Of a stretch of 55,544 bases of DNA, positions 7,437 through 49,223 are shown one piece after another. How positions within the stretch are numbered: the stretch's first letter is position 1; each line of letters starts with the position of its first letter. The notes beneath the pieces are model-generated. The model saw only the letters and a program-made list of their open reading frames with translations. It was not told the DNA's origin and made no database searches. This DNA comes from a virus (taxonomy: Duplodnaviria > Caudoviricetes): positions 1-55,544 of the IMG/VR virus record IMGVR_UViG_3300012667_000989, one strand, 5' to 3'. Made by a program: the position numbers and the translations under genes.

Positions 7437-9058
7437 GTGATAAAATCAGTTATATCTTGGAGGTTTTAGATAAATATTCTCCAAATACAAAAAAACTTAA
7501 GAAAGAAATTAGTTCTTTAGAATCTTGCGTACAATCCCTGAATAACCAACTAAAAACAACTTCTCTAAATGTTGGCAAATTAGGAAGTAGTCTTGGATTA
7601 ACCCAAGCAATCAAGCAAACTGATTCTCTAAAAAGAAATATAGATAACTTAAATAGGTCTAGCCAGCAATCCGTAAATATCACCAAGCAACAAGCAAGAG
7701 CTTTGGGAAATACTCGCAGAGCTTTTGCTGGATCATTTACGCCTATTAAGTTTAATCCTTATGAAGGCAAGTATCAACCGATACAGCAAAAAACACCTTA
7801 CGAACCCCAGCCTCAACCTCAACAACCATCAAGACGAGGCGGTTTTTTTGCTGGCGGAGATGGCGTTTCTTTAACAAATGTTGCTAAAGGTATGGGTTTT
7901 TATCGAGCAATTGATATGGCTGTTTCTGCTCCATCAAAAATCCATGATGTAACTGTTGAAATGGATTCTTTAAGGGCTGGTTTATCTGCTTTGATTCCAA
8001 CAGTAAAAGGAATGGAGAATGCAACTGCTGAAAGCGAAGTTGCTTATTTAAGAAGCATTTCTAACAAGTATGGTTTTGCCTTCTCTGATGTTGCGCCTTC
8101 TTATCTAAAATTAATGGGTACTGGCGGGAAAACTGACGCATCTTTGATAAAAGGAATACTTGAAAATGTTGGTGGATATGGTGGCTTAATAGGGATGAGT
8201 AGTCCAGCATTAGAAGGAACTCTAAGAGGCTTTCAAGATATGCTTACTAAGCAAGTTTTAAATGCTCAAGAGGTCAACTTACAAATGCAACAAATGCCTG
8301 GTGCAAAACCAATGTTACATAAGGCATTTAAAAGATTCGCAGAAAGTAAGGGTGTAAAAGGCATAACTGACGAAAATGTAAGTGCTAAATTCACCGCAGC
8401 TATGGCGACAGGAAAATTACCTTCTGTTGATATTTTGAGAGAATTTGTAAAAGTCTTATATGAGATGTTTGGTGAGGAGATGATTAAGAAGTCATCTAAA
8501 CTAAGAAACGAAGAAAAAAGGTTATCAAATGCTTTTCAAGAACTAGGTGATGAAATTGGCTTACTTACTTATGAGTCTCAAATCGGAGGAGTTAGATCAT
8601 TAACAAACTTAACCAAAAGCGTTAATGGATTTGCAGGAGAAGCTAATAGAGTAGCTGAATATATGAAAGGTTTATTCTCTGGTATATTGCCAGAAAAAGG
8701 TGGAGTTGTAGAAAAAACCGCAAGTGCGGTTGGTGGAACTGCCATAGATTTATTTAAAATGTCAATAGGAAGTCCTTTCTATGCTGCGAAATATGGTGGT
8801 GCTTTGGCTTTGGCTCAAGGTGCTTCGATAATGGGAGATGATACCTTAAAAGAAAATTTTGGATCTTGGGCAAAAGAAGAGTTCTTAAAAAATAACTTTG
8901 AAGATTTGCAAGCTGTATATAAAACTGACTTTATGTCACTTATAAATGCGCTAAAAGATGGTCAAAAAGTAGATATTACAATCAAATCAGATAATAATAT
9001 AAAAGTTGAAGATGTTAAATCTAGTCGTCCATCAACTGTAAAAGCGGGGCAGAAATGA
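7433..9058 (+). CDS. Tape measure protein
   Basis: 541 aa; coiled-coil N-terminus; QDMLTKQVLNAQEVNLQM.Q.MPG tape-measure domain. Confidence 0.88.
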   Translation: MSDKISYILEVLDKYSPNTKKLKKEISSLESCVQSLNNQLKTTSLNVGKLGSSLGLTQAIKQTDSLKRNIDNLNRSSQQSVNITKQQARALGNTRRAFAGSFTPIKFNPYEGKYQPIQQKTPYEPQPQPQQPSRRGGFFAGGDGVSLTNVAKGMGFYRAIDMAVSAPSKIHDVTVEMDSLRAGLSALIPTVKGMENATAESEVAYLRSISNKYGFAFSDVAPSYLKLMGTGGKTDASLIKGILENVGGYGGLIGMSSPALEGTLRGFQDMLTKQVLNAQEVNLQMQQMPGAKPMLHKAFKRFAESKGVKGITDENVSAKFTAAMATGKLPSVDILREFVKVLYEMFGEEMIKKSSKLRNEEKRLSNAFQELGDEIGLLTYESQIGGVRSLTNLTKSVNGFAGEANRVAEYMKGLFSGILPEKGGVVEKTASAVGGTAIDLFKMSIGSPFYAAKYGGALALAQGASIMGDDTLKENFGSWAKEEFLKNNFEDLQAVYKTDFMSLINALKDGQKVDITIKSDNNIKVEDVKSSRPSTVKAGQK

Positions 9059-23266: not shown

Positions 23267-23732
23267 AATTCCCTAAATTAAATTAATACAGCCCCCTACG
23301 GCAATTAAAGCCAAGCTATCACGACTGGCATGAAGCCAACCGCTGTATCTTACCCCATAAGAGTTCGTTTAGAAGGTACAGAGACTTTCCACTGGTGCGA
23401 TTCTTACTCCCCTTTTGCCCCAGAAGGACGGATCTTAAGCTCCTTTTCAGATGACGAGTTTCCAAAGTCTCGACTTCGCTTTAATACCGACCACGAAAAG
23501 CGCAATCCAAAATATTAAAGCCGTTTATTCCACCTGCTTCTGGTATTCTTTGAAAATTCAAAAAGTCGCAATCAATAGAAGTTGCGCTTGCTTCTATTAG
23601 TCTTTACCCTCCTACCCCTACAAAAGGATCAGATTTAGATACCTATGGCAAGTCTTTGTGGAACCCCAGTATCGGTTAGCAACATGACCTGTTGTTGCCC
23701 GTGTAGATTGCGACCATTTGAAAATTCATAAA

Positions 23733-23834
23733 GCAACGCTGGTAAGGCATTTCACCTTACATGCAACCTTTCGTCTTTAAGGTTCTTGTGAGTGCGTCCG
23801 CCTGACTGCGTCTATATTTCCGCCACAGCGTTGC
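23733..23834 (-). ncRNA. tRNA-like RNA A (no canonical anticodon arm, no encoded CCA)
   Basis: 9-bp GCAACGCTG/CAGCGTTGC stem; TG-GCG GAAATATAGA CGC D arm; GTAAGG TGAAATG CCTTAC T-like arm. Confidence 0.65.
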
Positions 23835-23890
23835 CATAAAAATTCTCAACTATAATAAAGTTACCATAGTTTAGTGTAAATCGTTATACT

Positions 23891-24042
23891 TGGTGGGAGG
23901 GGCAGGATTGTAACCTACGAAACCAAATTAATTAAAATATTCGTGGGTAATTATTCCACTATTTTTTAAATTAACCATACTGGTGGTTTGCCTACTGGTC
24001 GACCGCTGACAAACTGACATTAACATACTCGTCCACCCTCTC
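23891..24042 (-). ncRNA. tRNA-like RNA B with encoded CCA and about 100-nt central insert
   Basis: GAGAGGG/CCCTCCC-A-CCA acceptor; TG-GAC GAGTATGTTAAT GTC D arm; GTAGG TTACAAT CCTGC T arm. Confidence 0.72.
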
Positions 24043-24385
24043 CATTGTCCAGTTTTTTAGTAAATAAACTGGACGAATTTGCCTTTTTACAGAAGGCTAA
24101 CTGGCTTTCTCTCTAGCTGTCACGGATGTCTTACCGTCCTCCATAGTTACCCTGTTTTTTACATGGTTAGGCGTTCCGTAAACTTTCCATGAAGGCGGCA
24201 TAAGTTTATAGAGTCCTGACGCTTATTGTCCTCTTTCCTGCAACCATCTTAAGCCGTTGCCGCTTTTAAAACACCCGCAGCCAAGTAAGCTTTCTTTCTC
24301 TTTTTTAAAAGACTGCGGATGTTATCAATACCAGTACACGCAGGAACCTTTCAAAAAACCTTGTTTACTGATATTGATAGAGAGT

Positions 24386-35349: not shown

Positions 35350-35352
35350 CTG

Positions 35353-35445
35353 TTCCCTAACATATGATTTTGGCGGTAAAGCAGGTTAGGGGCTACTTTA
35401 CCATAAAATAAAACTTTCTATAACTCAACTTCCCTAACGAGTTAT
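35353..35445 (-). promoter_or_regulatory. Kissing-loop/anti-RBS RNA element in the initiator leader
   Basis: Hairpin loop GTTAGGGAA, second hairpin loop CCCCTAAC, second GTTAGGGAA at the RBS. Confidence 0.72.
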
Positions 35446-35449
35446 TTCT

Positions 35450-36440
35450 AACATTCTCAACGCCCCTAGTCCGAGTTTCCAACTTACATTGGCTGGTCTT
35501 TACTCCCACGGTTTGCCTTGCGACTTAACACTAGCGATTGCGCTGGTTTTATTTATTCTCAACCCCTATTTCTAAGAATCAAGAGAAAAATAAGTTTTAA
35601 TGTATCCGAATTCGGTAACATTAAAAATAAAGCTTTTTGCCAATGTATAGCTTTCGATCTGATGCTAACAGTACTATTAACATTTTTCTGCACTAATCAT
35701 AACCCCGTGTCGAGGTTGGTCGGAGCGCCTAAATTAGAAACTACCCCGTTTTCAGCGTCTAATCGCCTAGATTGCTTTCAATCGGTCAGATTCTTTGGCT
35801 CTCAAGTGCCATTTCACGGATTCAAACCGCCTCTCGTCTTTACCAAAACTCAATCACCGATCAGGAATTGAACCTGCATTTTTCGCGCTTTCTTCTTTAG
35901 TCAGGCTGACTTTGGTGGCGTGGAGGGGATTTTCACCGATGATTTACAAACTAGAATAATGTAAAACCATTTTTACCAATACTTCTGACTACTTCTTCAA
36001 TTAAATTCTAGATAGATAATTAAATTTTCTTCAGATGCTTTCTAATAAGCTACTCACGCCGTATGTCCCCCACTGGTGCGATCCTTTCGGGTTCGTTTGG
36101 GGGCACTATTCAAAGGGCTAAAACCTGCCCTCTGGCTTGATTTGCATTTCCAAAATATTTCTATTTTCCGACCATGTTTCAGGTATCGGCGGTGTTTTAT
36201 TAATATTAAACTAGAAGAGCCTAAACCCCACGCGAAGCTTTCTCCTGTACTTTGCAAAAAACGCATTTCTGCGCTTTTCTATACATGTTTTTTTGATATG
36301 TATAGAAAACCAAAGAAATCTATATATGAACCCCGTAAGCCATTGTCTAGAATAACTTACAGGGCTACTAGATACAGTTGCAACCGCTCTAGTACCAGCT
36401 CTATCACTTACATTGAAAAGGAGGGAGGTGACTGGTCTTT
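35450..36440 (-). ncRNA. Structured ncRNA region II
   Basis: About 1 kb without a credible ORF; many hairpins, T-loop motifs, long-range 9-bp complementarity; upstream promoter. Confidence 0.6.
35853..35944 (-). ncRNA. tRNA-like RNA D (acceptor plus T arm only)
   Basis: ATCATCGG/TCGGTGAT stem; CAGG TTCAATT CCTG T arm; no recognisable D arm. Confidence 0.5.
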
Positions 36441-45805: not shown

Positions 45806-46263
45806 TGGCTCGTAAAATCAAAAACCAAACAATTACCAATTTTATTGATGAATTTGGAGAAGTTCACCAAAAAGAGAGTTTCCAGAGTTATTCAATTGCT
45901 GGTGAAGATGATTATATTAAAATCTACATTAAACACATAAACTACTTATCAAATCTGCCTTCTGGTTTGGAAGGGTTGATTTATGAGTTAATTAAGTGTA
46001 TGAGTTATGGAAATAAAATTATAATTAACTCTTACATCAAAAGAGATATTGCCGTTAGACTTGGAAAAACCTTTAATACTGTAAATCAATACATCACAAA
46101 GCTATCTGAAAGCAAAATCCTTATTCGTGAAGGAAGAGGCGTTTATTATCTTAATCCTGCTTTTTATGGAAAAGGAAAATGGAAGGATATTTTAGAGCTA
46201 AGAGAGAAATTAGAAGTAAAAGTAAGTTATGAAGATGGAATTTATAAAATAACCCATAAATAA
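45805..46263 (+). CDS. repL: RepL-family replication/maintenance HTH protein
   Basis: YIKIY, IA..LG.T..TV...I..L....IL....RGVYYLNP.F..KG. Confidence 0.75.
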   Translation: MARKIKNQTITNFIDEFGEVHQKESFQSYSIAGEDDYIKIYIKHINYLSNLPSGLEGLIYELIKCMSYGNKIIINSYIKRDIAVRLGKTFNTVNQYITKLSESKILIREGRGVYYLNPAFYGKGKWKDILELREKLEVKVSYEDGIYKITHK

Positions 46264-46327
46264 CTTCTTGCTAATTAAATGCCTGTGATTAGTTTTTAAT
46301 GGATTATTACTCACCACATAATAAAAC

Positions 46328-47845
46328 ATGGCTTTTGAAAACTTTAAAAGGAAGATAGCTCTAAATTACTTAGAGAAGAAGGGAAGTGCTTATAGTCCTC
46401 TATTGTTTAACTTTCTTACCAATGATTTTTCTTTTGGTACTACCTCTGGCAAATATTTAGAATATTACTGCCAAGTTGCTCCTGTTGGAGACGCAATCAA
46501 TAAAATAGCTAATGAAACCGCTTGTGTTTCTCTTTTTCCTTACGCCAAATCTGAAAAGGAATCAAGAATAGCTCTACCGAATAGCCCTTTTGTCAAAACT
46601 TTCCGCAAACCTAATTTTAAGCAAACTGGGATAGATTTTAAGCAAGAGGGTTTTATACACTACTTAGCCACTGGAAATAATTATATTTATCTTTCTGGTG
46701 TGCTAAGTGCTGATAAGAGAAGTGTTTATCAAAGTCCGCTAGAAGTCTATAATCTACGCCCTGATTACATTACGCCAGTTCAAGATATGTCTGGTTATCC
46801 AGAATATTACCTTTATAATCCGAATGGAAAGCAGAAATGTTTCCGCAAAAGATACATAAATAACATAAATGGGCAATTAATTGAAGCCTATGTCGAAGAT
46901 GAAGGTTTTGGCGTACTATTGCATTGGAAAGAGCCTTCCAATAACCAACTGTTCTCAATGCTTTATGGTGATTCACCTTTACAGAATGTAGAAATTGAGA
47001 TTAACCAATATTTAGAAGCTTCAATACATAATGCGAACCTTTTGAAGAATGGTTTATCTTCTAAGATGTTATTTAGCCCTAAAGATGGATCAAATCCACC
47101 AAATCAAGACCAATTAGACAAAATAAGAGATTATTTGAAAAGTGCTTACTCTGGCTTTAACAATGCAGGCAAGAATCTACTTATTGGAATGCCTTTTGAT
47201 GTTAAGCCTTTGGATATAAACCTCAAAGATATGGATTTTGAGAAGCTGATGCGAAGAATGAGGGTGGCAATTTACAATAAAATGAATATTCCGCTTCCTA
47301 TGGTTGAAGGTGAGTTCACCTCAAATACAAACATGAAAGAGGCTAACCTAAACTTTTACGACAAAGCTGTTCTGCCGCTTCTTGCTAAATACTGCGAATA
47401 CTATTACTGCTTTGTTTATTCTAATTTTTACCGAGATGATGGTGTTTTTGAGATAGGTTTTGAAGAATCTTCAATTCCCGCATTACAACCTCGCTTATTT
47501 GAAACAGTGCAAGTTTTACAAAAAGCTAAAATAGCTACTTCAAACGAACTAAGAGAATTTGTTGGCTTAGGACGCTGCGGAATTGGTGGAGATGCTCTTT
47601 ATGTTGACGGAAATCAAGTTGCTGTTGCTGGTGATGAAAATATGAGTGATACAATTGGTGTTCCTGCTGGAATGGTTAATATGCCTGATGAAGAGGAAGG
47701 AGAGTTGGACGAAGAAGAGGAGGAAACTGAATTTGAAGAAGAAGGTAAAAGCATTTTAAAGAAACTCTTAGTAAAAACTCTTGATATTAAAGGAAATAGG
47801 GTTTATTCTGATGAGGAAGTGGAGAAGTTAGTTGCTGGTGAATAG
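46328..47845 (+). CDS. Portal protein (HK97 family)
   Basis: LATGNNY, LRPD, YGDSPL, G..NAGK, KDMDF, T.NE.R..VGL. Confidence 0.94.
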   Translation: MAFENFKRKIALNYLEKKGSAYSPLLFNFLTNDFSFGTTSGKYLEYYCQVAPVGDAINKIANETACVSLFPYAKSEKESRIALPNSPFVKTFRKPNFKQTGIDFKQEGFIHYLATGNNYIYLSGVLSADKRSVYQSPLEVYNLRPDYITPVQDMSGYPEYYLYNPNGKQKCFRKRYINNINGQLIEAYVEDEGFGVLLHWKEPSNNQLFSMLYGDSPLQNVEIEINQYLEASIHNANLLKNGLSSKMLFSPKDGSNPPNQDQLDKIRDYLKSAYSGFNNAGKNLLIGMPFDVKPLDINLKDMDFEKLMRRMRVAIYNKMNIPLPMVEGEFTSNTNMKEANLNFYDKAVLPLLAKYCEYYYCFVYSNFYRDDGVFEIGFEESSIPALQPRLFETVQVLQKAKIATSNELREFVGLGRCGIGGDALYVDGNQVAVAGDENMSDTIGVPAGMVNMPDEEEGELDEEEEETEFEEEGKSILKKLLVKTLDIKGNRVYSDEEVEKLVAGE

Positions 47846-47880
47846 TGTCATTGCTAATTAACTTCTTTCTTTAAGAATAA

Positions 47881-48019
47881 ATTCGAGTGGTGGAATGGTA
47901 AACACAATCAGAGCGGCTAGAAATAGCAATGCGAGCGTATCCTGAATTGACAGGAAGTTCTTGTATGTGAGATAGGGGTGTTTAATATCTCCTTTGTGGG
48001 TTCGAGTCCTACCTCAGAA
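47881..48019 (+). ncRNA. tRNA-like RNA C with about 90-nt multi-hairpin insert
   Basis: TG-GTG GAATGGTAAA CAC D arm; GTGGG TTCGAGT CCTAC T arm; bulged TTCGAG/CTCAGAA acceptor; TTGCTA..AAGAAT promoter-like site at 47851-47878. Confidence 0.72.
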
Positions 48020-48043
48020 AACACATACCTTAATTTATCACTT

Positions 48044-48322
48044 ATGGCAGAAATTATTAATTTAGCGGAATATCGCAAAAAGAAAGAGCGAGAAAAATAT
48101 ATTACAAACTGCCAGACAAGAATTGCGGTTTCAGATATTAGTTTTTCTAGTTTAAACGAAATCGAACAAAGACTAATTGACCACTTTATAAAGGAGGGAG
48201 AGTCTAAGATGTTGATTCTTGATGATCCAATAAGTTGTGGCTATGTACCAGATGAGAATTTCTTAAAAGAATATTCAAAAAATTTTAAATACAGAATAGA
48301 CTTTGGTAATGAATCTTCGTGA
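48044..48322 (+). CDS. hypothetical protein
   Basis: MAEIINLAEYRKKK start at ATG 48044 (the upstream GTG lies inside the RNA). Confidence 0.6.
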   Translation: MAEIINLAEYRKKKEREKYITNCQTRIAVSDISFSSLNEIEQRLIDHFIKEGESKMLILDDPISCGYVPDENFLKEYSKNFKYRIDFGNESS

Positions 48323-49223
48323 AATTGACATTGAAAAAAGAAAAATAGAAAGCCGATACATAAAACCTATCCGCTCTATTTTTTGTCAAATGAACCAAGA
48401 TGCTATTAATCTTTACAAAGCAACTAAATCTGTAAACGCTGAATCGGTTGCTAGAAACTGCACCCCAGACTTTTTAAAAGTTTGCAAAGACTGCCTAAGA
48501 GAAACAATTCAGACTTTTGGCTATTTGGAACGCAAGCCAAGTAAAAAAGCCATAGATGTTGAAATAGACCAAGATCAACTAGAAAACATCAATAAAGAGT
48601 TTGAAAGACTTGCTATTCTCTTTATAGCAACTGAAAGCGAGAGACAAGCTCTTTATATTCAAAACACCAACGCAAAAGAATTATCAGAAGCCCAAATCAA
48701 TGCTTTAACTAAGCACATCAGAAAAGAAGCTAGATTGCAGACGGCTATCCAAGAATTAGAGCAAAGAATAATGCAAATTCGCTTTCAAGGATTTATTCAA
48801 GGAAAAGAAACTGATTTAAGCAAATTAGATGCAAGATTGGCTAAATACAAAAAAGAACTAACTGCCTTACAAAAAACCAAAGATAATGCAGTTGCGGAAG
48901 AGATAAACATTGCTTTAGACAAGAAAGAAGAGTCAAGAGCAGAGCTAATTGCTGAAACTTTGGTCGGAAGTGCTGAAAGCTGGTCAAGACAAGAAGAGGT
49001 AACTTTGATTGCCTTAAATCTTGGAGTACAGATAAAAAAAGCTTGGCGTGGAATTTTAGATGGAAGTATTAGACCAACTCATTTAGCTGCAAACGGGCAA
49101 ACAGTTCCTTTAAATCAGAACTTTGTTGTTGGTGGTTATTTAGCACAAAGACCAAGAGATTCTAAACTTCCTGCTTCTGAAAGTTTAAAATGCCGTTGTT
49201 ATGTTGAATATTCTAGGGTTTAA
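48309..49223 (+). CDS. Head morphogenesis protein (SPP1 gp7 / Mu gpF-like)
   Basis: RAELIAET, KKAW....D..IRPTH..ANGQ, PRD..LP.SE..KCRC. Confidence 0.88.
   Translation: MNLREIDIEKRKIESRYIKPIRSIFCQMNQDAINLYKATKSVNAESVARNCTPDFLKVCKDCLRETIQTFGYLERKPSKKAIDVEIDQDQLENINKEFERLAILFIATESERQALYIQNTNAKELSEAQINALTKHIRKEARLQTAIQELEQRIMQIRFQGFIQGKETDLSKLDARLAKYKKELTALQKTKDNAVAEEINIALDKKEESRAELIAETLVGSAESWSRQEEVTLIALNLGVQIKKAWRGILDGSIRPTHLAANGQTVPLNQNFVVGGYLAQRPRDSKLPASESLKCRCYVEYSRV

What the first reader, a model, noticed from the sequence alone, without database searches (positions are those of the whole stretch)
47881..48019. Third large-insert tRNA mimic inside the head operon with its own promoter-like site
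Seen (plus strand): near-textbook D arm (TGGTGGAATGGTAAACAC) and T arm (GTGGGTTCGAGTCCTAC), separated by about 90 nt carrying GCTA-GAAA-TAGC (GNRA loop), TCCTG-AATTGA-CAGGA and GGGGTG..TATCTC hairpins. The acceptor is bulged and no CCA is encoded. TTGCTA..AAGAAT sits just upstream. The same design at a locus 24 kb from array I, with an unrelated insert, argues for a recurrent RNA class rather than one decayed tRNA. It might alternatively be a leader for the 48044 ORF.
Basis: partly seen in the sequence, partly recalled or inferred. Interest (0 to 1): 0.78.

Follow-up and report, generated by a model that had tools for sequence, protein, structure and literature searches.

The report
Rearranged tRNA-Leu relic in phage
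This is a stretch of phage DNA derived from a leucine tRNA gene that keeps the tRNA's top half but has lost a working anticodon arm, so it is most likely a rearranged remnant, possibly still cut out as a small RNA, and not a new class of RNA.

Summary
Window 47882-48020 (+) has a textbook class II D arm, a canonical T arm and a bulged acceptor, with 90 nt between the arms and no encoded CCA. It is tRNA-derived. The D arm is identical to phage and Gracilibacteria Leu/Ser tRNAs. A metagenome contig carries an ordinary CCA-encoding tRNA-Leu(UAA) matching both halves, with 29 nt where the window has 86.

It is not a decoding tRNA. Rfam's tRNA model finds nothing at E<=10, ARAGORN gives contradictory calls, the acceptor reads as a 7-bp stem missing one base, and no 5-bp stem with a 7-nt loop follows nucleotide 26.

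The element lies in a ~475-bp accessory cassette between the portal and MuF-like genes. Three close relatives lack the cassette, two carry other ORFs there, and more distant ones carry ordinary tRNA-Thr genes and a tRNA fragment. One metagenome contig carries the cassette without the element. All copies found are near-identical, so covariation cannot be tested, and no RNA data exist.

Best reading: a rearranged tRNA-Leu(UAA) remnant whose intact elbow, T arm and acceptor may still be cut by RNase P/Z. Oversize tRNA-likes in other phages and T4 RNA C/D keep a functional reading alive. The promoter and the "recurrent class" claims are weak. Interest is modest.

The parts
46328..47845 (+). Portal protein gene, upstream neighbour; ends with TAG at 47843-47845
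   Evidence: PHROG portal families, E = 1.9e-35; ORF list
47846..48308 (+). Accessory cassette of about 475 bp between the portal and MuF-like genes, holding the tRNA-like element and a 92-aa ORF
   Evidence: Absent in L005/L007/L008, where portal and MuF overlap. Replaced by other ORFs in L002 and L006. Present at 98.5% identity in L003/L004 and also in L063
47851..47878 (+). Weak sigma-70-like words TTGCTA, 16 nt, AAGAAT
   Evidence: Only 8 of 12 consensus matches and not called by the scan; 1-nt deletion at 47876 in relatives
47862..48028 (+). 167-nt module holding the tRNA-like element; replaced by 27 other nt in one metagenome variant of the cassette
   Evidence: Run X1 contig joins 47861 to 48029 with 27 letters between. 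X1 has zero depth over 47882-48011 although both flanks are covered (one contig, depth 2)
47882..47887 (+). Acceptor 5' strand TTC-GAG, one base short of a 7-bp stem
   Evidence: Model R1 aligns it with a deletion at model position 4; ARAGORN drawing
47888..47905 (+). U8-G9 and the class II D arm (3-bp stem, loop AATGGTAA with G18 G19)
   Evidence: The 17 bases 47889-47905 are identical in tRNA-Ser(GGA) L033, tRNA-Leu(CAA) L035 and Gracilibacteria tRNA-Leu(CAG) L055
47906..47995 (+). 90-nt middle in place of the anticodon and variable arms. H1 is 47916-47927 (GNRA loop). H2 is 47940-47955, extendable by 47929-35 pairing with 47960-66. H3 is 47969-47991; its alternative is a 5-bp stem 47975-79/47987-91 with the 7-nt loop GUUUAAU
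   Evidence: MFE and constrained folds; R1 alignments. A canonical tRNA-Leu(UAA) contig has 29 nt where 47908-47993 lies
47996..48012 (+). T arm GTGGG-TTCGAGT-CCTAC. Base 48010 is T in the window (G.U pair) and C in all other copies (G-C pair)
48013..48020 (+). Acceptor 3' strand CTCAGAA and discriminator A; no CCA follows
48044..48322 (+). 92-aa ORF of the cassette, function unknown
   Evidence: ORF list. No Pfam or PHROG family above threshold. Its only distant relative is a multi-Cache-domain protein. AlphaFold2 pLDDT 42.7
48309..49223 (+). MuF-like head morphogenesis gene, downstream neighbour
   Evidence: PHROG head morphogenesis, E = 3.1e-24; start inferred from the alignment with L005/L007/L008

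Best explanation
The element at 47882-48020 descends from a phage class II tRNA-Leu(UAA) gene. Its anticodon and variable arms have been replaced or expanded to about 86 nt of hairpins, and its acceptor stem has lost one base. It arrived as a ~167-nt module inside a small accessory cassette at a spot downstream of the portal gene where this phage group repeatedly gains and loses tRNA genes. It no longer decodes. It lies in sense orientation in the late head operon and keeps an intact D-loop/T-loop elbow, T arm and most of the acceptor. I therefore infer, without direct evidence, that host RNase P and RNase Z/E still recognise it and cut the polycistronic transcript on both sides. That would release a ~140-nt tRNA-like RNA and separate the portal message from the downstream message. 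Shown: the tRNA derivation, the loss of tRNA-model membership, and presence/absence polymorphism. Inferred: transcription, processing and any benefit.
For: Derivation from a tRNA. The 17-base D-arm core (47889-47905) recurs exactly in ordinary class II tRNAs: Ser-GGA in L033, Leu-CAA in L035 and Gracilibacteria Leu-CAG in L055. A contig of run X5 matches 47884-47907 with 2 mismatches and 47994-48015 with 1. In between it has 29 nt that form an anticodon arm with anticodon UAA and a short variable arm, and it ends in CCA. TTA is the commonest Leu codon here, 444 of 980 in 45 ORFs, so an ancestral tRNA-Leu(UAA) makes sense. Model R1 aligns the whole element in tRNA register at 37.9 bits and reads the acceptor as a 7-bp stem with a 1-nt deletion.

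Not a working tRNA. RF00005 gives no hit in the window at gathering score or at E<=10, although it scores the oversize tRNA-likes of other phages at 38.7-42 bits. ARAGORN gives His(GTG) for 47940-48020 by default and Lys(CTT) with a 44-nt intron and poor stems in intron mode. No CCA is encoded, whereas the relatives' tRNA-Thr genes do encode CCA.

Accessory and dispensable. The element is in 2 of 17 portal-anchored viral loci. L005/L007/L008 have no cassette, and L002 and L006 carry other ORFs. Run X1 holds the cassette without the element.

A tRNA hot spot. tRNA-Thr(TGT) lies on the minus strand just after the portal gene in L009, L012 and L014-16, and L012 also has a tRNA 3' fragment there.

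Basis for the processing idea. U8, A14, G18G19, T54-A58 and C56 are all present. The cloverleaf-like fold with three inserted hairpins is -31.6 kcal/mol against an MFE of -33.9.
Against: The D and T arms show no point-mutation decay: the 17-base D-arm core is identical to those of working tRNAs. One of the two substitutions among copies switches a T-stem G.U pair to G-C, which keeps the pair. That pattern could reflect selection on a functional tRNA-like RNA rather than a relic. Other phages carry oversize class II tRNA-likes with perfect acceptors (L019, L026/L036, L037), and T4 makes stable 139-nt and 119-nt RNAs from its tRNA cluster. A trans-acting role is therefore not excluded. No RNA-level data were obtainable: no RNA run was listed. 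The key variants rest on low-depth contigs (X1 depth 2, X5 record 14 depth 3.3). The true ancestor is unknown. R1's score is inflated by the way its training set was chosen.
Confidence: 0.6

Rival explanations
1. It is a functional, discrete tRNA-like stable RNA in the manner of T4 RNA C/D. The elbow, T arm and acceptor are kept for RNase P/Z maturation and stability. The remodelled middle carries a trans-acting function, for example a decoy or sponge for tRNA-binding host factors or defence nucleases.
For: The D and T arms are intact, and T-stem variation is of the pair-preserving type. The structured alternative fold is near-optimal. Of 25 viral loci with the exact D-arm word, I read 10 as tRNA-like contexts; 6 of those 10 (4 lineages) are oversize. 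T4 rnaC is 139 nt, has a perfect T arm next to tRNA-Arg, and is a late RNA of unknown function (passages of PMC3014915 and PMC9697503).
Against: All copies are at least 98.5% identical, so there is no covariation, and the element is no better conserved than the neighbouring ORF: about 1.4% divergence in each in run X4. A variant cassette lacks it. The acceptor is damaged, unlike in L019, L026 and L037. The inserts of the different lineages share no sequence. No Rfam family matches. No expression data exist.
Confidence: 0.2
2. It is a working tRNA, either Leu-UAA or an ochre suppressor with anticodon UUA. In this reading the ~68-nt block 47907-47974 is an intron or a tolerated extra arm.
For: A 5-bp stem (47975-79/47987-91) with the 7-nt loop GUUUAAU lies 4 nt before the T arm. 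In silico removal of about 47906-47975 yields ARAGORN calls of tRNA(tta) or tRNA-Leu(taa). TTA is the main Leu codon.
Against: The deletion scan is not discriminating. It gave 165 full-length calls from 3154 variants with 20 different anticodon calls, and the same scan on other elements gave calls for 16-56% of variants. No group I intron core was found, and the insert is far shorter than known group I introns (recalled). Bacteria have no tRNA-splicing endonuclease (established knowledge). TAA is the stop codon of 34 of 45 ORFs, so an ochre suppressor would be harmful. The competing hairpin H3 is at least as stable. The acceptor is bulged and no CCA is encoded.
Confidence: 0.06
3. It is a cis-acting 5' leader, either regulatory or stabilising, for the 92-aa ORF at 48044. 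It would be transcribed from the TTGCTA/AAGAAT site.
For: It lies 24 nt upstream of the ATG and begins a few bases after the -10-like word. Hairpin 47940-47955 with its T-rich tail scores as terminator-like.
Against: The X1 variant keeps the ORF and the 16-nt proximal leader but lacks the element. The promoter-like site is weak and is altered by an indel in relatives. No riboswitch or leader family matches. The leaders of the alternative cassettes in L002 and L006 are short and unstructured.
Confidence: 0.08
4. It is a chance resemblance to tRNA arms within ordinary intergenic DNA.
For: The overall fold is no more stable than shuffles.
Against: The exact 18-nt D arm has 0.02 expected chance matches. 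The T arm and acceptor are in the correct register. A canonical tRNA-Leu contig matches both halves.
Confidence: 0.01

Closest known systems
Ordinary phage or bacterial class II tRNA-Leu(UAA), and other Leu/Ser tRNAs
   Same: Identical D arm, canonical T arm, U8, A14, G18G19 and discriminator A. The inner acceptor pairs GAG/CTC are shared with the canonical tRNA-Leu(UAA) contig of run X5.
   Different: It has about 86 nt where the canonical gene has 29. It has no regular anticodon arm after nucleotide 26 and no standard variable arm. The acceptor lacks one base and there is no CCA. It fails RF00005.
Phage T4 RNA C (species 1, 139 nt) and RNA D (species 2, 119 nt)
   Same: These are phage-encoded RNAs of about 120-140 nt associated with tRNA genes. 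RNA C ends with a perfect T arm followed by an acceptor-like tail. Their function is unknown (passages of PMC3014915 and PMC9697503). That they are matured by RNase P is recalled, not checked here.
   Different: There is no demonstrable sequence homology: R1 matches only part of rnaC, at 19.7 bits. The T4 RNAs sit inside a tRNA cluster and are known to be expressed. I saw no tRNA-type D arm in rnaC on reading. The window's element is solitary and its expression is unknown.
tRNA gene fragments and pseudo-tRNAs left by recombination
   Same: It is a partial or altered tRNA that gene finders miscall (ARAGORN gives His or Lys). It lies at a site of repeated gene gain and loss, and a bare tRNA 3' fragment sits in the same slot in L012. 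The general phenomenon is described in the abstract of PMC9897764.
   Different: Both halves of the tRNA are kept in order and in register around an insert, rather than a single truncated half.
Oversize class II tRNA-likes in other IMG/VR phage contigs (L019, L026/L036, L037)
   Same: They have the same exact D arm, a T arm, no CCA and 60-93 nt between the D and T arms.
   Different: They have perfect 7-bp acceptors. L019, L026 and L036 pass RF00005 at 38.7-42 bits, with the insert inside the anticodon loop of a recognisable anticodon stem. The inserts are unrelated in sequence to the window's.
tmRNA and YrlA (tRNA-like domains with large inserts)
   Same: The general idea is shared: acceptor, T arm and D-loop mimicry surrounding a large non-tRNA insert.
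   Different: ARAGORN's tmRNA search finds nothing even when relaxed, and no Rfam tmRNA or YrlA hit appears. Position 3:70 is U.G, not the G.U that tmRNA needs for alanine identity (that requirement is recalled). YrlA has a permuted topology (recalled).

Membership tests
Canonical tRNA (Rfam RF00005) | Scores at or above the family's gathering score of 29 bits | tested here: not met
   No hit in the window at gathering score, at E<=10 in 47700-48200, or at E<=10 over the whole record. The control genomes and the oversize elements L019, L026 and L036 do score.
Canonical tRNA (Rfam RF00005) | Acceptor stem of 7 base pairs | tested here: not met
   TTC-GAG against CTCAGAA gives 6 pairs with A48016 bulged. 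R1 reads this as a 1-nt deletion in the 5' strand.
Canonical tRNA (Rfam RF00005) | D arm with G18 G19 and T arm with a TTCRA loop, able to form the elbow | tested here: met
Canonical tRNA (Rfam RF00005) | Anticodon stem of 5 bp with a 7-nt loop directly after nucleotide 26 | tested here: not met
   A906 is followed by about 68 nt of other sequence. A possible anticodon-like hairpin (47975-47991) lies only next to the T arm and competes with a more stable hairpin.
Canonical tRNA (Rfam RF00005) | 3' CCA, encoded or added, and aminoacylation | not testable with these tools
   CCA is not encoded. Whether it is added and whether the RNA is charged cannot be tested here.
Descent from a class II tRNA-Leu(UAA) gene (homology, not function) | Sequence match of both tRNA halves to ordinary class II Leu tRNAs | tested here: met
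   X5 record 14 matches 24 nt with 2 mismatches and 22 nt with 1 mismatch, flanking a UAA anticodon arm. The 17-base D-arm core is identical in L035 (Leu-CAA) and L055 (Leu-CAG).
Group I intron-containing tRNA | Group I catalytic core (Rfam Intron_gpI) within the insert | tested here: not met
   No Rfam hit at gathering score or at E<=10. The insert is only 68-86 nt.
tmRNA | tRNA-like domain together with a tag reading frame and pseudoknots, detectable by ARAGORN or Rfam | tested here: not met
   ARAGORN's tmRNA search at a relaxed threshold found 0 genes, and Rfam gave none.
T4 RNA C/D-type stable RNAs | Sequence or structure homology to rnaC or rnaD | tested here: inconclusive
   Only the tRNA-derived T arm and tail are comparable. 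R1 gives a partial 19.7-bit hit on rnaC. No dedicated model exists.
T4 RNA C/D-type stable RNAs | Accumulates as a discrete, processed stable RNA during infection | not testable with these tools
   No RNA run was listed for the stretch.

The most novel reading that the evidence does not exclude
The window's element, the oversize class II tRNA-likes of unrelated aquatic phages (L019, L026/L036, L037) and T4 RNA C/D would together form one functional kind of phage RNA. These would be 'elbow-keeping' tRNA shells in which the acceptor, D arm and T arm are retained so the host matures and stabilises the RNA. The anticodon region would be swapped for lineage-specific hairpins that act in trans, for instance by titrating tRNA-binding host factors or tRNA-directed defence nucleases.
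Probability: 0.15. Interest if true: 0.65.

Novelty: new member of a known kind. Interest (0 to 1): 0.3.

Why it matters
If it is a relic, it is a clear worked example of how phage tRNA genes are rearranged at a gain-and-loss hot spot, and of how such remnants mislead gene finders: ARAGORN calls it His or Lys. If the tRNA top half is still processed, it would be a phage example of tRNA-like punctuation of a late operon. If the bolder reading holds, it would give a handle on the long-unexplained T4 RNA C/D type of RNA. None of these is a major surprise on present evidence.

Tried and rejected
- **Expression.** The look-up of sequencing runs listed 20 DNA or unknown holders and no RNA holder, so expression could not be examined.
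- **Cultured-phage relatives.** blastn 'distant' of 47700-48200 against 50,697 phage records found no match.
- **More diverged copies for covariation.** The ORF-anchored scan of viral contigs gave 2 loci and that of metagenome contigs gave 1 (L063), all the known haplotype. Laid contigs added only haplotype (A,C). Covariation is therefore untestable.
- **Host clue from the D arm.** The D arm plus T loop pattern has 0 matches in genome contigs. The 18-mer alone gave 17 loci. Only L055 (Gracilibacteria tRNA-Leu) is a clear tRNA, and two cyanobacterial loci (L048, L061) hold it inside odd tRNA-fragment repeats that I could not interpret.
- **Single-deletion scan.** This tested a non-canonical intron, but ARAGORN is too permissive for it. 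It gave 165 full-length calls from 3154 variants here, and 519 of 3160, 795 of 1431 and 470 of 1830 in three other elements, with no consistent anticodon.
- **Archaeal-type (BHB) splicing.** I considered this and dropped it without a test, because the gene content (DnaB-type helicase, RepL, MuF, PHROG hits) points to a bacterial host.
- **Ochre suppressor.** I considered and rejected this on stop-codon usage.
- **The 92-aa ORF.** It has no family above cut-off, the AlphaFold2 model is at pLDDT 42.7, and its only distant relative is a multi-Cache protein. It gives no link to the RNA.
- **Array I in relatives.** A DNA search in two records gave only a 30-nt match in one of them. L063's record is not held.
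- **Supplementary tables.** Those of PMC10690425 list candidate tRNA-like RNAs from IMG/VR. I could not see them, and they may already list related elements.

Full report
**What is there**

The window is a complete 55,544-bp viral record with direct terminal repeats. The finding lies between the portal gene (46328-47845) and a MuF-like head-morphogenesis gene (48309-49223).
- U8-G9 and a D arm at 47888-47905.
- A T arm at 47996-48012.
- 90 nt between the two arms, holding three hairpins.
- An acceptor TTC-GAG against CTCAGAA, with one bulged A.
- Discriminator A48020, with no CCA after it.

The 18-nt D arm has one match in the window even with up to 3 mismatches allowed, against 0.02 expected by chance.

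Standard detectors disagree or fail:
- ARAGORN by default calls tRNA-His(GTG) at 47940-48020.
- In intron mode it calls tRNA-Lys(CTT) with a 44-nt intron and poor stems.
- Rfam's tRNA model gives nothing at gathering score or at E<=10.
- No other Rfam family matches.
- The minimum-free-energy fold is no better than shuffles, z = -0.39.
- A cloverleaf-like fold (acceptor, D arm, three inserted hairpins, T arm) lies only 2.3 kcal/mol above the MFE.

**It descends from a class II tRNA, most likely tRNA-Leu(UAA)**

The exact 17-nt D-arm core occurs in 25 loci of the viral collection. By my reading:
- 14 of the 25 loci lie in apparently coding sequence.
- 1 locus is unclear (L041).
- 10 loci are tRNA contexts:
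  - 3 are ordinary-sized tRNAs: Ser-GGA in L033, Leu-CAA in L035, and an odd class II His-GTG in L025.
  - 1 is a truncated 5' half (L032).
  - 6 are oversize. They fall in four lineages: the window's own clade (L020/L030), L019, L026/L036 and L037.

In 185,579 species genomes the 18-mer gave 17 loci. Only a Gracilibacteria tRNA-Leu(CAG) (L055) is a clear tRNA among them.

I laid metagenome contigs on the stretch. A contig of run X5 matches 47884-47907 with 2 mismatches and 47994-48015 with 1 mismatch. Between those matches it has 29 nt that form an anticodon arm with anticodon UAA and a short variable arm, and its loose ends complete a G+C-rich acceptor and an encoded CCA. An ordinary tRNA-Leu(UAA) therefore shares both halves with the element. 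TTA is the phage's commonest leucine codon, 444 of 980 in 45 ORFs, so a phage tRNA-Leu(UAA) would have been useful to it.

I built a covariance model from 8 ordinary class II tRNAs. It aligns 47882-48020 end to end at 37.9 bits, and the relatives' copy at 42 bits. It reads the acceptor as a 7-bp stem with one base deleted from the 5' strand and treats the middle as a 63-81-nt insert. The score is inflated, because five of the eight training sequences were picked for sharing the D-arm word.

**It is not a working tRNA**

Beyond failing RF00005, it has no 5-bp stem with a 7-nt loop after nucleotide 26. A possible anticodon-like hairpin (47975-79/47987-91, loop GUUUAAU) sits 4 nt before the T arm, but it competes with the more stable hairpin 47969-74/47986-91. 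I scanned all single deletions. Of 3154 variants, 165 gave a full-length ARAGORN call. The commonest calls were tta (28), gtg (26), aga (24) and ctt (14). The same scan on three other elements gave calls for 16-56% of variants, so this test cannot discriminate. An ochre suppressor is implausible, because TAA ends 34 of 45 ORFs. No group I intron core is present.

**Context: an accessory cassette at a tRNA hot spot**

The portal protein found 17 related viral loci, and the element is in 2 of them (L003, L004; 98.5% identical). Among the eight loci with at least 92% portal identity:
- L005, L007 and L008 have the portal and MuF genes overlapping, with nothing between them.
- L002 has a small ORF there that I read as GroES-like. 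This was read by eye and not tested.
- L006 has another ORF.
- L009 is arranged differently and carries a tRNA-Thr.

More distant relatives (L012, L014-16) have an ordinary CCA-encoding tRNA-Thr(TGT) on the opposite strand just after the portal gene. L012 also keeps a bare tRNA 3' fragment there. The slot is therefore a place where tRNA genes and small ORFs come and go.

A contig of run X1 joins 47861 to 48029 with 27 other letters. X1 has no depth over 47882-48011 while both flanks are covered at 100% identity. This is the same cassette and ORF without the tRNA-like module. Those 27 letters share a 10-nt word with the leaders of the L002 and L006 cassettes, which suggests that the element-free form is the older one. 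The caveat is that this rests on one contig at depth 2.

**Variation**

Across the window, L003, L004, L063 and runs X2, X4 and X5, the element shows only two variable sites:
- 47907 is A or C.
- 48010 is T or C, and this switches a T-stem G.U pair to G-C.

In run X4 I counted about 1.4% divergence in both the element and the ORF, and about 3.8-3.9% in the flanks. The whole cassette is therefore young or recently exchanged, and the element is not specially conserved within it. No covariation test is possible.

**Promoter and leader claims**

TTGCTA, 16 nt, AAGAAT matches 8 of 12 consensus positions, and the scan did not call it. The -35 word lies outside the 167-nt module and the -10 word inside it. 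Relatives have a 1-nt deletion in the -10 word. By a loose pattern, 9 of 45 gene starts have a Shine-Dalgarno-like word. The absence of one before ATG 48044 is therefore normal for this phage. The X1 variant argues against the element being a required leader for that ORF.

**Mechanism**

The following is shown:
- The element is tRNA-derived.
- It fails the tRNA model.
- It is dispensable and polymorphic in the population.
- Its elbow nucleotides (U8, A14, G18G19, T54-A58, C56), T arm and most of its acceptor are intact.

The following is inferred. It is in sense orientation within the late operon, so it is transcribed with it. RNase P and RNase Z/E, which recognise the acceptor/T-arm stack and the elbow (established knowledge), probably cut on both sides. 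That would release a ~140-nt RNA and uncouple the portal message from the downstream message. Whether this brings any benefit is unknown. I rate 'rearranged tRNA-Leu remnant, non-decoding, possibly still processed' at 0.6.

**Rivals**

- A functional stable tRNA-like RNA (0.2). It is kept alive by the undecayed arms, by oversize tRNA-likes with perfect acceptors in other phages, and by T4 RNA C/D. The scores for those oversize elements are:
  - RF00005 gives 38.7-42 bits for L019, L026 and L036.
  - R1 gives 51-55 bits, including for L037.
  - T4 RNA C/D are 139-nt and 119-nt genes beside tRNA-Arg; RNA C has a perfect T arm, and their function is still unknown (passages of PMC3014915 and PMC9697503).
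- A working tRNA with an intron or an extra arm (0.06).
- A cis leader for the 48044 ORF (0.08).
- Chance resemblance (0.01).

**The 'recurrent class' claim**

That hit has a perfect 7-bp acceptor but lacks GG in the D loop and has no TTCRA T loop. With default filters, and with RF00005, nothing else in the window scores. On this evidence the window does not hold three copies of one design.

**Novelty**

It is a new member of a known kind: tRNA-derived or pseudo-tRNA elements in phage genomes. I ran four full-text searches (listings and abstracts read, plus passages of three papers). They found general mentions of non-canonical tRNA-like candidates in IMG/VR (PMC10690425, passages) but nothing describing this architecture. 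The supplementary tables of that paper were not visible to me.

Noticed in passing
window 23270-24330 (minus strand): This is an ORF-poor stretch of about 1 kb, relatively G+C-rich, between minus-strand genes. It has no Rfam hit. With filters off, the class II tRNA model gives a 17.1-bit tRNA-shaped hit at 23734-23832, which has a perfect 7-bp acceptor AACGCTG/CAGCGTT but non-consensus D and T loops, and an 8.8-bit hit at 23902-23961. It may be a large unknown structured RNA or a set of degenerate tRNA-likes. Only a 30-nt match was found in one relative's record.
   Followed up: partly
window 35350-36050 (minus strand): This is a second long ORF-poor stretch. It has two T-loop-like words (35818-35828 and 35864-35874) and a 9.9-bit model hit at 35853-35942. 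No Rfam hit was found at gathering score.
   Followed up: no
window 47728-47777, compared with L003-L008 and runs X4 and X5: Close relatives carry about 386-420 extra bases inside the 3' part of the portal gene. In the window the same place holds only 32-48 nt of acidic-tail coding sequence. The relatives' portals therefore have an extra C-terminal segment of about 130 residues.
   Followed up: no
L003/L004/L005/L007 about 2343-2932, corresponding to window 46263-46303: These relatives have about 590 bp inserted just upstream of the portal gene that the window lacks. It is another variable slot.
   Followed up: no
L006:4419-4492, L009:4771-4844, L012:3794-3867, L014:1988-2058, L013:5378-5608 (all minus strand): Relatives carry ordinary tRNA genes on the strand opposite to the head genes, near the portal and MuF genes. 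These are Thr-TGT, plus Met and Phe in L013. L012 also has a tRNA 3' fragment (T arm, acceptor and CCA) beside its tRNA-Thr. ARAGORN missed the L014-16 copies, which the custom model finds at 31.4 bits.
   Followed up: partly
L048:5100-5620 and L061:3380-3900 (cyanobacterial genomes, minus strand): The exact D-arm word sits inside a repeated array of tRNA-like fragments. These include units with perfect 7-bp acceptors, and an intact UAA anticodon arm next to a T arm about 95 nt downstream of the D-arm word. I did not interpret this array.
   Followed up: partly
L037:6300-9800 (minus strand): A phage tRNA array with at least 14 RF00005 hits also holds several tRNA-shaped genes that only the custom model finds. 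These are 8413-8522 (oversize, 51 bits), 8036-8122 (31.2 bits) and 7870-7948 (22.8 bits).
   Followed up: no
window 48044-48322: Residues 26-78 of the 92-aa cassette ORF match a unit repeated six times in a 1037-aa multi-Cache-domain protein, at 27% identity and E = 2.2e-10. It may be a stand-alone fragment of a Cache/PAS-like fold.
   Followed up: partly
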